From assembly GCF_041886205.1 (NCBI RefSeq), contig NZ_CP169029.1: a stretch of 64,000 bases of DNA. One strand, 5' to 3'. Shown piece by piece: positions 23,062-26,000 of the stretch (position 1 is the stretch's first letter; each line of letters begins with the position of its first letter). This DNA comes from Escherichia coli (GTDB lineage: Bacteria > Pseudomonadota > Gammaproteobacteria > Enterobacterales > Enterobacteriaceae). Position numbers: made by a program.

Positions 23062-26000
23062 TAATTGTGTGGACTGGCATCCGTTGGGTGCTGGTCCGTA
23101 TTCTTTAGCACGGCTGACGGCGCATAACCAAATTTATCCGGTGCGCCGTAAAACCCCGTCCTTCAGGGCGGGGATATAAGGCGCGGTTTTCCACCTGACC
23201 AGGTGTTTGCTGTTGTTCAATGTATTGGCGGATGACGGATATTGGCGCACCTCCGCAGCTACTGGCAAAATAGCCAGGACTCCACAAAACGCCTTTGTAG
23301 TAATACCTGACTGCAATATCTGGTCGATCTCGTCGCAGTAACCTACCCGATACGCCTTTGAGGCTGTTTACCAGACTGGATATCGCCAGTTTGGGAGGAT
23401 AGTTAATTAACAAATGGACGTGATCTGGTTCGCCATCCATTTAAACCAGTTCAGCTTCAAAATCAGCACATACATTTGAAAAGTAAGTGCGTAGTTTTTC
23501 TGTCGCGTCATAGTCAAAAATCTGACGTCGGTATCTGGTGACAAAGACCAGGTGAACATGCATCAGGAAAACACAATGCTTCCCCGTCGGATATCGGTTT
23601 CTTTATTCACAGACCAAAGTATCATTTGGCCTGTGAAACGATTACAGGCATTTAAATTCCAGTTAAGACCCGGTGGTCAACAGGAGCGTGAAATGAGGCG
23701 CTTCGCAGGCGCATGTCGTTTCGTTTTCAATCGTGCTCTGGCGCTTCAGAATGAGAATCATGAGGCCGGTAATAAATACATCCCTTACGGGAAAATGGCT
23801 TCCTGGCTGGTTGAGTGGAAAAACGCCACTGAAACGCAATGGCTTAAAGATTCGCCCTCACAGCCATTGCAACAGTCACTGAAAGACCTTGAGCGGGCTT
23901 ACAAAAACTTCTTCCAGAATCGGGCTGCTTTTCCCCGATTCAAAAAGCGGGGACAGAATGATGCATTCCGCTACCCGCAGGGCGTTAAGCTCGATCAGGA
24001 AAACAGCCGTATTTTTCTGCCGAAACTGGGCTGGATGCGCTACCGGAATAGCCGTCAGGTCACGGGTGTTGTGAAAAATGTCACGGTCAGCCAGTCCTGC
24101 GGTAAGTGGTACATCAGTATTCAGACAGAAAGTGAAGTATCAACTCCGGTTCACCCTTCAGCATCAATGGTCGGGCTGGATGCTGGCGTGGCTAAACTTG
24201 CCACGCTGTCAGATGGCACAGTCTTTGAGCCTGTAAACAGTTTTCAGAAAAACCAGAAGACGCTGGCGAGACTTCAGCGACAGTTAAGCCGCAAGGTCAA
24301 ATTCAGCAACAACTGGCAGAAGCAGAAACGCAAAATACAGCGACTGCATTCCTGTATCGCAAATATCCGCAGGGACTACCTTCACAAAGTCACAACGACC
24401 GTCAGCAAAAACCACGCAATGATAGCCATTGAGGATTTGAAGGTCAGCAACATGTCAAAGTCAGCAGCGGGTACGGTCAGCCAGCCGGGGCGCAATGTCC
24501 GGGCAAAATCAGGTTTAAACCGTTCGATACTGGATCAGGGCTGGTATGAAATGCGCCGCCAGCTTGCGTACAAGCAGCTCTGGCGTGGCGGTCAGGTGCT
24601 TGCTGTTCCGCCAGCGTACATAAGCCAGCGTTGCGCGTGCTGTGGTCATACAGCGAAAGAAAATCGCCTGTCACAAAGTAAATTCAGATGCCAGGTATGT
24701 GGATATACAGCGAACGCCGATGTAAACGGCGCTCGTAACATTTTAGCGGCGGGGCACGCCGTTCTTGCCTGTGGAGGGATGGTGCAGTCAGGCCGCCCGT
24801 TGAAGCAGGAACCCACCGAAATGATTCAGGCGACAGCCTGAACGTAGCAGGGATCCTCGTCATTCAGGGCGTGGAGGATGTCAACAATGGAGCCTGCGTC
24901 CGTGGCGTAAAGATGCACAGCCGCGCTGGATGGGGGCATTTCGTCCACGCCCACAAGATGGCTATTCGCCAGTGGTACGCGACTATGACACCGGCCTACC
25001 GACACAAGGGGTGAAGGTGGAAGAGAAAAAACAGAAGTTCTGACGATAATGCCCGCTGATGAACACCCGGCGGGCATTATTCAGGCTGCTTAAACCAGTG
25101 AACCGCCAGTCAGGAAGGAAAAGATAAGGAATATCAGCAAAATGCTGCACACGATGCCGATACCAAAAAGCAAAGTATGGAAAGCCAGCGTCCCGCCGCC
25201 AAAAACCAGCGCGCCGCGAATGCCCCAGCGATTTTCCTTACGCATACCGCCAATAAATGCGCAAAGTAGCGCAGCAATGGCCAGTGCGATACCGCTTTGA
25301 TTGAGGATTTTATCGACATCTACGTCCTCTTTTTTCTCCACGGTGGTAATTTTTTCGCCTTTTATTCCGGCGAGAAGACCTCTTTTAATTTCAGCCGTTT
25401 TGTCCGCCACGATGCTTTCAAACGTTGGCGGTGGTGCGGAGAAAGGGCCGAATGAAAAGTGGATAATCCCCATCATTAAAGCGATGGCACCGAACAGCAT
25501 GCCCAATGAACTGATTTTATTTTGAGCTATGATACCCATCTGACCTCCTTGTAGCGGATGGCGAAAGCATATCAGGAAACGGGCGGACGAAATTCTTAAA
25601 AAAAACCGCTAAAGGTAGAGCGTTAGTGAAATTGCAAAGGAGCAACAATGAAAATTTCCCGCCTTGGAGAAGCGCCCGATTACCGCTTCTCGCTGGCTAA
25701 TGAGCGTACTTTTCTGGCGTGGATCCGTACCGCACTAGGATTTCTGGCGGCGGGGGTTGGGCTTGATCAACTTGCGCCAGATTTCGCCACGCCCGTCATT
25801 CGTGAACTGCTGGCGTTGTTGTTGTGTCTGTTTTCCGGCGGGTTAGCGATGTATGGCTACCTGCGCTGGTTACGCAATGAAAAAGCGATGCGTCTGAAAG
25901 AGGACCTGCCCTACACCAACAGCTTATTAATCATCAGCTTAATATTGATGATCGTGGCGGTGATCGTTATGGGACTGGTGTTGTATGCCGGATAGCCGTA

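What the first reader, a model, noticed from the sequence alone, without database searches (positions are those of the whole stretch)
23633..25089. Apparently intact TnpB nuclease with candidate right-end guide-RNA region
The TnpB ORF (about 402 aa from GTG 23633) keeps all three RuvC catalytic motifs ([24 protein letters not shown]) and the CxxC...CxxC zinc finger. TnpB proteins are established RNA-guided nucleases, the ancestors of Cas12, and use an RNA derived from the element right end. The 250 bp downstream (24842-25089) contains no credible ORF but does hold a strong hairpin (AATGCCCGC...GCGGGCATT, 25049-25078), so it may encode that RNA.
Basis: partly seen in the sequence, partly recalled or inferred. 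Interest (0 to 1): 0.5.

Follow-up and report, generated by a model that had tools for sequence, protein, structure and literature searches.

The report
Ordinary IS609 copy with TnpB
This is a routine copy of the well-known E. coli insertion sequence IS609, whose TnpB nuclease gene is open; its guide RNA is encoded inside the end of that gene, and the hairpin further downstream is host DNA.

Summary
The element is IS609 (IS200/IS605 family) in E. coli. Seven independent insertion sites and one empty site fix its limits: host target TTAT at 23134-23137, left end at 23138, right end ...GGAGGATGTCAA at 24884.

tnpB (23633-24841, 402 aa) is open. It keeps D183/E267/D363 and both CxxC pairs. It also carries a private T330I change in the conserved YTSQxC motif. 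tnpA is a pseudogene.

The guide-RNA (omega RNA) scaffold is not in the 250 bp downstream. It lies at 24745-24884, mostly inside the tnpB 3' end, and is supported by covariation among relatives. The predicted guide starts at 24885 (CAATGGAGCCTGCGTC).

Bases 24885-25043 are the last 159 bp of host gene yidJ. The hairpin at 25047-25079 lies between yidJ and yidI, and this stretch is present in thousands of genomes.

IS609, its TTAT/TCAA ends and TnpB/omega RNA biology are all published, so the finding is already known.

One side observation: this copy sits at deletions anchored on its right end, each ending flush against a TTAT site.

The parts
23134..23137 (+). TTAT: host target site and predicted TAM, immediately 5' of the left end
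   Evidence: TTAT precedes the element at 7 of 7 independent E. coli sites and in Pantoea. The uninterrupted host sequence reads CCAAATTTAT|GTTTAAAGG, so TTAT is host DNA. Published as the IS609 left cleavage site (PMC9956272 supplement).
23138..23197 (+). IS609 left end (LE), with subterminal hairpin CCCCGTCC-TTCA-GGGCGGGG at 23154-23173
   Evidence: Conserved from 23138 in all copies. DNA fold -14.1 kcal/mol, z = -2.85. Weak hit of the RE-hairpin part of model R1.
23198..23625 (-). tnpA (Y1/HUH transposase) pseudogene: in-frame TAA at 23441-23443, and the normal stop replaced by CAG (+ strand 23195-23197)
   Evidence: Translation compared with intact Pantoea TnpA. PGAP note 'frameshifted; internal stop; incomplete'. 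With the stop repaired, the sequence hits NF033573 at 135 bits against a cut-off of 55.
23633..24841 (+). tnpB, 402 aa, open reading frame. D183/E267/D363 and C334/C337/C353/C356 retained. V265A is shared with strain 6EVA; T330I is private (C->T at 24621).
24745..24884 (+). Predicted omega RNA (reRNA) scaffold, 140 nt. Helices: S1 24746-24751/24757-24762; S2 (RAGATH-18-like) 24768-24772/24805-24809 with an inner stem 24776-24783/24792-24798; S3 24825-24831/24836-24842, overlapping S4 24837-24840/24848-24851; S5 (RE hairpin) 24854-24861/24868-24875; single-stranded tail GGAUGUCAA 24876-24884.
   Evidence: The only strong hit of model R1 in the 64 kb window, 157.9 bits (the window sequence was itself in the model). 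Third-codon conservation is raised. Sub-threshold Rfam hits to RAGATH-18 (24768-24811) and HgcC (24774-24897).
24881..24884 (+). TCAA: right-end cleavage site and last bases of IS609
   Evidence: GGAGGATGTCAA is invariant in 13 of 13 relatives down to 49% TnpB identity, and the sequence diverges immediately after it. Published as the IS609 RE site.
24885..24900 (+). Predicted 16-nt guide CAATGGAGCCTGCGTC, taken from host flank (yidJ)
   Evidence: It is the first host bases after the RE. The guide position follows the established TnpB mechanism. The 16-nt length is assumed from ISDra2 and was not measured here.
24885..25043 (+). 3' remnant (last 159 bp) of host sulfatase gene yidJ. Not part of the element.
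   Evidence: (H29).
25047..25079 (.). Host hairpin in the 46-bp spacer between convergent yidJ and yidI. Not part of the element.
   Evidence: Read directly, with one loop difference, in strain MS 124-1, which has no IS609 at this site. The stretch 24885-25300 is at least 80% covered in 3714 genomes. Folds on both strands. Not a canonical terminator by the scan.

Best explanation
The region is one copy of insertion sequence IS609 (IS200/IS605 family, the subgroup with divergent genes). It was inserted 3' of a host TTAT downstream of glvG. It cannot move by itself, because its transposase gene tnpA carries a premature stop. Its tnpB gene is open and encodes a TnpB RNA-guided nuclease. The cognate guide RNA (omega RNA) is most likely made from the 3' part of the tnpB transcript. 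A 140-nt scaffold (24745-24884) ends at the transposon's TCAA end and continues into about 16 nt of flanking host DNA (24885-24900), which serves as the guide. By the established TnpB mechanism, the complex would cut DNA carrying TTAT followed by CAATGGAGCCTGCGTC. That sequence is the joint left if the element were excised, and it is also the uninterrupted yidJ allele of other strains. The resident copy is protected, because TCAA rather than TTAT precedes the guide-matching bases. What is shown here: identity, boundaries, domain and catalytic-residue conservation, and conservation with covariation of the RNA scaffold. What is inferred: transcription, processing, guide length and cleavage activity.
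For: Identity and boundaries. The copy is 97.9-98.8% identical over 23133-24884 to IS609 copies at six other chromosomal sites, including the K-12-type insQ copy. TTAT lies on the left and GTCAA on the right at 7 of 7 sites. An empty site was found. The published IS609 cleavage sites are TTAT and TCAA (PMC9956272).

TnpB. Pfam HTH_OrfB_IS605, OrfB_IS605 and Cas12f1-like TNB all hit. NF040570 scores 379 bits. D183/E267/D363 align to ISDra2 D191/E278/D361. These positions are 100/103/101 of 107 conserved among diverse homologues.

RNA. The scaffold sequence is conserved up to TCAA in relatives down to 49% protein identity, followed by unrelated flanks. On 43 distinct sequences, 97.1% of cells pair, against 43-59% when partners are slid. 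Twelve pairs show compensatory change, against 3-5 in the slid controls. None of 500 shuffles reaches the observed values. Third-codon identity in 24745-24841 exceeds the rest of the gene: Shewanella 81% against 34-51%, Pantoea 79% against 55-64%. A RAGATH-18-like core lies at 24768-24811, and RAGATH-18 is the reRNA core of IS607 TnpBs (PMC11061315). The RE hairpin has the UUCA tetraloop described for TnpB-overlapping RNAs (PMC4615843).

Target. 342 E. coli genomes carry TTAT+CAATGGAGCCTGCGTCCGTGGCG exactly, inside intact yidJ.

Host origin of 24885 onward.
Against: There are no expression or cleavage data for this copy. The single-sequence fold of 24745-24884 is not unusually stable (z = -1.55) and does not reproduce the comparative structure. 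No Rfam family reaches its gathering score. The covariation alignment was fitted to the model and includes close relatives, so it leans towards the structure. Helices S3 and S4 overlap in this lineage and cannot both form. This copy's RE stem has two mismatches (T24857, A24862): DNA fold -3.1 kcal/mol, z = -0.13, against -7.7 and z = -2.26 for the K-12-type copy. TnpB carries T330I at a position that is T or S in 99 of 107 homologues and never I. In the one paper found that purified IS609 TnpB, it was not the enzyme reported as active in trans-cleavage (PMC12781874).
Confidence: 0.85

Rival explanations
1. One reading: the guide RNA is encoded in the 250 bp after the stop codon (24842-25089), and the strong hairpin at 25047-25079 is part of it.
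For: The first 43 bp (24842-24884) do belong to the scaffold, and the next ~16 nt are the predicted guide. The hairpin is thermodynamically strong.
Against: All IS609 copies diverge immediately after GTCAA at 24884. 24885-25043 is the 3' end of yidJ, and the hairpin lies in the yidJ-yidI spacer of a genome with no IS609 at this site. Model R1 and the conservation place 97 of the 140 scaffold nt inside tnpB.
Confidence: 0.03
2. Decaying relic: this particular copy is functionally dead for RNA-guided cleavage as well as for transposition. The ORF is merely not yet broken.
For: tnpA is a pseudogene here and at all seven E. coli sites examined. There is a private T330I change in the YTSQxC motif. 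The RE/omega RNA terminal stem has two mismatches.
Against: tnpB is open at 402 aa at all seven sites while tnpA decays, which argues for selection on tnpB in the lineage. The catalytic and zinc residues are untouched. The same RE-stem allele occurs at two other insertion sites (L006, L007). V265A is a common state, with A in 18 of 107 homologues. The effect of T330I is untested.
Confidence: 0.35
3. Domesticated TnpB: the protein has been recruited for a host function, for example RNA-guided transcriptional repression like the TldR proteins, rather than DNA cleavage.
For: tnpB is retained without a working tnpA across E. coli.
Against: The RuvC triad is intact, whereas TldR-type exaptations lose it (that property of TldR is from my own knowledge; triad data). 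The gene still sits inside complete IS609 ends at many different loci, with locus-specific guides. This is the pattern of a mobile element, not of a fixed host gene.
Confidence: 0.03

Closest known systems
IS609 of E. coli (ISfinder name; the K-12 copy is insQ/tnpB plus a tnpA pseudogene between ydcL and ydcO)
   Same: 97.9% nucleotide identity over the whole element to a K-12-type laboratory-strain copy (H17). Same divergent gene order, same 402-aa TnpB, same TTAT/TCAA ends, and tnpA likewise a pseudogene.
   Different: Different insertion site (downstream of glvG), so a different guide. Ten amino-acid differences in TnpB, including private T330I. Two mismatches in the RE hairpin. The right flank is a deletion junction.
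ISDra2 TnpB-omega RNA of Deinococcus radiodurans (PDB 8BF8/8EXA/8H1J)
   Same: Full-length protein alignment, E = 2.6e-53, with the catalytic D/E/D triad and zinc finger aligned. In both, the RNA scaffold overlaps the tnpB 3' end and stops at the transposon right end, and the guide comes from the flank (the ISDra2 mechanism is from the literature).
   Different: TAM TTAT rather than TTGAT. tnpA is divergent rather than co-directional. The RNA sequence is not alignable by the tools used. Activity of this copy is untested.
IS608 of Helicobacter pylori (the structural paradigm for Y1 'peel and paste' transposition)
   Same: Inserts 3' of a tetranucleotide, ends in TCAA, has no inverted repeats or target duplication, and carries subterminal hairpins at both ends, about 16 nt from the left site and 9 nt from the right site. 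IS608 details are from my own knowledge.
   Different: Target TTAT rather than TTAC. Genes are divergent. The transposase here is inactive.
RAGATH-18-derived reRNAs of IS607 TnpBs (Rfam RF03064; PMC11061315)
   Same: The core CCUGUGGAG...GUUGAAGCAGGAA at 24768-24811 matches both ends of the RAGATH-18 model. It sits in the same place, within the RNA that guides a TnpB.
   Different: Score 28.1 bits against a gathering score of 44.9, with the central part (44 model positions) replaced by 17 nt. The partner transposase is a Y1 enzyme, not a serine recombinase. The cited paper reports RAGATH-18 only with IS607.
HgcC RNAs and sense-overlapping transcripts of IS1341-type tnpB genes (PMC4615843)
   Same: An RNA overlapping the tnpB 3' end, with a right-end hairpin closed by a UUCA tetraloop.
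   Different: Only 18.7 bits against a gathering score of 50. The family is archaeal.

Membership tests
IS609 / IS200-IS605 family insertion sequence | Inserts 3' of a specific tetranucleotide (TTAT), ends in TCAA, with no terminal inverted repeats and no target duplication | tested here: met
   7 of 7 sites have TTAT|LE and RE-GTCAA| with unrelated flanks. The empty site reads TTAT|GTTTAAAGG. Matches the published IS609 sites.
IS609 / IS200-IS605 family insertion sequence | Subterminal imperfect hairpins at both ends | tested here: inconclusive
   The LE hairpin is strong (-14.1 kcal/mol, z = -2.85). The RE hairpin of this copy is weakened by two mismatches (-3.1, z = -0.13), whereas the K-12-type copy folds (-7.7, z = -2.26).
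IS609 / IS200-IS605 family insertion sequence | Encodes a Y1 HUH transposase TnpA | tested here: inconclusive
   The gene is present and, with the stop repaired, hits NF033573 (135 bits, cut-off 55). It is interrupted by TAA at 23441-23443 and has lost its stop codon. The copy is a member by descent but non-autonomous.
IS609 / IS200-IS605 family insertion sequence | High nucleotide identity to named IS609 copies | tested here: met
   97.5-98.8% over 23133-24884 to copies at the ydcO, yedK, yfeD, yeaQ and other loci.
TnpB RNA-guided endonuclease | Family-level sequence membership and domain architecture (HTH/WED-REC, RuvC, zinc-ribbon TNB) | tested here: met
   NF040570 at 379.1 bits against a cut-off of 100. 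PF12323, PF01385 and PF07282 all hit. E = 2.6e-53 to ISDra2 TnpB structures.
TnpB RNA-guided endonuclease | RuvC catalytic D-E-D triad and CxxC...CxxC zinc finger | tested here: met
   D183/E267/D363 align to D191/E278/D361 of ISDra2. C334/C337/C353/C356 are present. All sit in columns at least 94% conserved among 107 homologues.
TnpB RNA-guided endonuclease | Other near-invariant residues (the YTSQxC motif before the zinc finger) | tested here: not met
   Residue 330 is Ile. Homologues have T in 93, S in 6 and I in 0 of 107. AsCas12f also has T at this position. The change is a private C->T at 24621. Its functional effect is unknown.
TnpB RNA-guided endonuclease | Cognate RNA scaffold overlapping the gene's 3' end and terminating at the right end, followed by a flank-derived guide | tested here: met
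   Conservation to TCAA and then divergence. Covariation. Synonymous-site constraint.
TnpB RNA-guided endonuclease | The RNA is expressed and bound, and the complex cleaves TAM-flanked targets | not testable with these tools
   No transcriptome or biochemical data are available for this copy. IS609 TnpB was purified in PMC12781874, but the text read gives no positive result for it.
Rfam RAGATH-18 (RF03064) | Score at or above the family gathering threshold | tested here: not met
   28.1 bits against 44.9, E = 0.017. This is a resemblance only.
Rfam HgcC (RF00062) | Score at or above the family gathering threshold | tested here: not met
   18.7 bits against 50, E = 0.23.

The most novel reading that the evidence does not exclude
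The IS609 copy downstream of glvG has generated at least two deletions anchored on its right end, in parallel or in series. Each ends exactly 3' of a TTAT target site: one in yidJ (this window, at least 14 genomes) and one at the 5' end of yidI (at least 161 genomes). This is the outcome expected if the Y1 transposase joined the in-situ right end to a new target on the same strand. Each such deletion also re-programmes the omega RNA guide to the new flank. The guide of this copy now matches, with a correct TTAT TAM, the undeleted yidJ allele present in 342 other E. coli genomes. TnpB could therefore cut incoming wild-type DNA and stabilise the deletion allele.
Probability: 0.2. Interest if true: 0.4.

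Novelty: already known. Interest (0 to 1): 0.15.

Why it matters
It matters little as a discovery. IS609 was reported in about 83% of complete E. coli genomes surveyed, its ends are catalogued, and TnpB/omega RNA biology is established. The value of this check lies in precise annotation: the exact element limits, the TAM, the real position of the guide-RNA scaffold, the predicted guide, and the point that the eye-catching hairpin is host DNA. The copy could serve as a natural test case. It pairs a dead transposase with an open tnpB, carries a private change in a near-invariant motif, and has a guide with perfect natural targets in other strains. The right-end-anchored, TTAT-flush deletions are the only part that might teach something new about how IS200/IS605 elements reshape genomes.

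Tried and rejected
- An Rfam scan of 22800-25400 at permissive E-values gave only two sub-threshold hits and nothing at gathering score.
- Single-sequence folding of the scaffold was not informative: z = -1.55, and the structure differed from the comparative one.
- The promoter/terminator scan found nothing useful for the omega RNA and did not call the host hairpin a canonical terminator.
- Aligning the left flanks of 25 viral-contig relatives to obtain a larger TAM sample failed. Most of those relatives lack tnpA at the expected distance, so the windows were not homologous.
- I looked for the ancestral insertion without a deletion (RE joined to the yidL flank) and for an IS609 left end joined to the 5' part of yidJ. 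Neither was found. The two-copy recombination route and the transposase route to the deletion therefore cannot be separated.
- The TnpB mutational-scanning preprint had no text hit for the ISDra2 residues equivalent to T330.
- I considered and rejected the longer 429-aa ORF from GTG 23552. Relatives start with ATG at the position equivalent to 23633, and PGAP uses 23633.
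Full report
**Observation.** A 402-aa ORF runs from GTG 23633 to TGA 24839-24841. It contains [24 protein letters not shown] and two CxxC pairs. The downstream inverted repeat is real and strong: TAATGCCCGC/GCGGGCATTA at 25047-25079, RNA fold -25.0 kcal/mol, z = -5.98.

**What the region is.** The window is E. coli. Its nearest complete genome is strain 6EVA, which differs from the window at two aligned positions across about 8.4 kb, 22455 and 24621, apart from five bases at the edge of the fetched locus. A BLAST of 22900-25300 against 5426 complete E. 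coli genomes showed that 23133-24884 recurs at 97.5-98.8% identity at many unrelated loci: ydcL/ydcO (the K-12-type insQ copy), yedK, yfeD, yeaR/yeaQ, a TetR gene and a DUF3251 gene. Everywhere it is annotated as 'IS200/IS605 family transposase' plus 'RNA-guided endonuclease InsQ/TnpB'.

I aligned both ends from seven independent sites. The flanks are unrelated up to an invariant TTAT, followed by CCGGTGCGCC... on the left. On the right, the element is invariant to ...GGAGGATGTCAA and the flanks are unrelated after it. A genome without the insertion reads CCAAATTTAT|GTTTAAAGG. TTAT (23134-23137) is therefore host target DNA. The element is 23138-24884.

This is IS609. A published survey lists IS609 as the divergent-gene 'IS605c' subgroup, with left site TTAT and right site TCAA, in 2046 of 2467 E. 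coli genomes (PMC9956272 supplement).

**TnpB.**
- Pfam finds HTH_OrfB_IS605, OrfB_IS605 and the Cas12f1-like TNB domain.
- NCBIfam NF040570 scores 379 bits against a cut-off of 100.
- The protein aligns end to end with the solved ISDra2 TnpB at E = 2.6e-53. D183, E267 and D363 fall on catalytic D191, E278 and D361.
- Among 107 diverse representatives from a 1.8-billion-protein search, these columns and the four cysteines are at least 94% conserved.
- The start at 23633 is supported by PGAP and by ATG at the same position in relatives.

One caveat emerged. This TnpB has two residues not seen in eleven close 402-aa relatives, V265A and T330I. V265A is harmless by conservation, since A occurs in 18 of 107 homologues. 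Residue 330 lies in the YTSQxC motif just before the zinc finger. That position is T in 93 and S in 6 of 107 homologues, never I, and it is T in AsCas12f. The underlying C->T at 24621 is absent from the nearest genome and occurs in only 2 of 5426 genomes.

**Where the guide RNA is.** I collected relatives from plasmids and viral contigs, spanning 98% down to 49% TnpB identity. In all of them the nucleotide sequence is conserved through the last ~100 nt of tnpB and on to an invariant GGAGGATGTCAA. Beyond that the sequences are unrelated.

RNAalifold on 13 sequences predicts several helices, six pairs of which show compensatory changes. A covariance model built from that alignment finds one strong match in the whole 64 kb window, 24745-24884 on the + strand, at 157.9 bits. 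The window sequence was part of the model, so this match locates the element rather than testing it independently.

On 64 matches (43 distinct sequences):
- 97.1% of cells form standard pairs, against 43-59% when partners are slid.
- 12 pairs have changes on both sides, against 3-5 in the slid controls.
- No shuffle out of 500 reaches the observed values.

The alignment was fitted to the model, so this leans towards the structure.

Third-codon-position identity to the window is higher in 24745-24841 than in the rest of tnpB. Shewanella shows 81% against 34-51%, Pantoea 79% against 55-64%, and Salmonella 100% against 78-89%. This is what a second, RNA-level constraint on the coding sequence predicts.

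Rfam gives two sub-threshold hits in the expected place: RAGATH-18 at 24768-24811 (28.1 bits, gathering 44.9) and HgcC at 24774-24897. RAGATH-18 is the conserved core of the RNAs that guide IS607 TnpBs (PMC11061315). HgcC shares the right-end UUCA-tetraloop hairpin described for RNAs overlapping tnpB 3' ends (PMC4615843).

The scaffold is therefore 24745-24884. Of its 140 nt, 97 lie inside the gene, and the tnpB stop codon sits in helix S3/S4. The guide begins at 24885.

**The remaining downstream sequence is host.** Bases 24885-25043 are the last 159 bp of the sulfatase gene yidJ, in frame to its own stop. The hairpin lies in the 46-bp spacer between convergent yidJ and yidI (25090-25539, - strand). 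The stretch 24885-25300 is at least 80% covered in 3714 genomes, where it is annotated as yidJ and yidI. The hairpin was read directly in strain MS 124-1, which has no IS609 at this site. The hairpin is therefore not part of the transposon or of its RNA. It is probably a 3'-end or terminator structure for the two convergent genes, but this is an inference, because the scan does not call it a canonical terminator.

**tnpA and autonomy.** On the - strand, tnpA has an in-frame TAA at 23441-23443 where the intact Pantoea protein reads ELVEMDGE. Its normal stop is replaced by CAG. PGAP marks tnpA as a pseudogene at all seven sites examined, while tnpB is a clean 402-aa CDS at all seven. This copy cannot transpose on its own.

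**Most likely mechanism.** This follows the established TnpB model, and its steps are inferred for this copy.
1. The tnpB transcript's 3' part folds into the scaffold, is bound by TnpB, and is trimmed to leave about 16 nt of flank as the guide (CAATGGAGCCTGCGTC).
2. The complex cuts DNA carrying TTAT followed by that sequence.
3. The resident locus is immune, because GTCAA rather than TTAT precedes the guide-matching bases.
4. Perfect targets exist in nature: 342 E. coli genomes carry TTAT+CAATGGAGCCTGCGTCCGTGGCG inside intact yidJ.

Arguments against activity of this particular copy:
- T330I (above).
- Two mismatches in the terminal RE stem, T24857 and A24862. The DNA fold is -3.1 kcal/mol (z = -0.13), against -7.7 (z = -2.26) for the K-12-type copy.
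- The single-sequence fold does not single out the comparative structure.
- There are no expression data.

**Comparison with what is known.** This is a member of IS609 by identity, ends and gene content. It works like ISDra2 TnpB-omega RNA. Its ends resemble IS608 (TTAC/TCAA, from my own knowledge). It does not qualify as an Rfam RAGATH-18 or HgcC member. IS609 TnpB has already been purified and assayed with an omega RNA (PMC12781874). Nothing in the finding itself is new.

**Side observations.** The right flank is a deletion junction. Compared with strain MS 124-1, the genes yidL, yidK and most of yidJ are missing.
- The left junction is shared by at least 302 genomes.
- The window's right junction (RE|CAATGGAG) occurs in at least 14 genomes.
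- A different right junction (RE|TTTGAGCTATG, at the 5' end of yidI) occurs in at least 161 genomes.
- In undeleted alleles, both endpoints lie immediately 3' of TTAT.
- Neither the undeleted insertion nor a second copy in yidJ was found.

The simplest reading is one insertion followed by two right-end-anchored deletions onto TTAT sites. These arose either by transposase-type strand transfer or by recombination between two copies. The two routes cannot be distinguished here.

Two plasmid relatives (L014, L015) are mosaics. Their tnpB is about 43-60% identical to IS609 over the first 600 nt, 94-98% identical from about 24233 to 24744, and of a different type again at the right end.

**Verdict.** The TnpB identification is right and the guide-RNA location is wrong. 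The element is an already-known insertion sequence, so interest is low.

Noticed in passing
window 23134-23137 and 24884/24885; L009 6985/6986; L002 2467-2470, 6497-6501, 7134-7140: The IS609 copy sits at a deletion junction: yidL, yidK and most of yidJ are missing. The same left junction occurs in at least 302 genomes with at least two different right junctions: into yidJ (at least 14 genomes) and into the 5' end of yidI (at least 161 genomes). Both right junctions are flush with a TTAT in the undeleted allele. This suggests right-end-anchored deletions onto IS609 target sites. About 127 genomes with the left junction are not accounted for by these two types.
   Followed up: partly
window 24621 (tnpB codon 330): A private C->T change gives T330I in the near-invariant YTSQxC motif (T or S in 99 of 107 homologues). 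It is absent from the nearest genome, 6EVA, and found in only 2 of 5426 complete E. coli genomes, both at the ydcO-locus copy.
   Followed up: yes
window 24857 and 24862: Two substitutions break two of the nine pairs of the right-end hairpin, which is also the last omega RNA stem. The same allele is present in the copies near yfeD (O157:H7) and yeaQ, so it is not private to this locus.
   Followed up: partly
window 23195-23197 and 23441-23443; L003-L008: tnpA is annotated as a pseudogene at all seven E. coli sites examined, while tnpB is always open. In six of the seven copies examined the tnpA stop codon reads CAG, so the frame runs on through the left end. Only the yedK copy keeps TAG.
   Followed up: partly
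L014 501-1778 and L015 501-1778 (IncI2 / IncF plasmids): These tnpB genes are mosaic. The first ~600 nt are only 43-60% identical to IS609, the stretch equivalent to 24233-24744 is 94-98% identical, and the right end is again of the Klebsiella-plasmid type. This implies recombination between distinct IS605-family elements within the RuvC-coding part.
   Followed up: no
window 23154-23173: The left-end hairpin (CCCCGTCC-TTCA-GGGCGGGG) gives a weak hit to the right-end-hairpin part of the omega RNA model (11.1 bits). The two end hairpins share the same stem design and TTCA loop.
   Followed up: partly
L022-L052 (viral contigs), L010, L012, L013, L016-L018 (plasmids): Many close relatives of this TnpB on phage-like and plasmid contigs have no annotated tnpA upstream (plasmid loci) or lack the IS609 left-end and tnpA sequence at the expected distance (viral contigs). 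They still keep the full omega RNA scaffold.
   Followed up: no
window 21742-23064 versus L002 1583-2397: The 6-phospho-alpha-glucosidase gene upstream (glvG-like, 440 aa) is an intact ORF in this window. It is annotated as a frameshifted pseudogene in strain MS 124-1.
   Followed up: no
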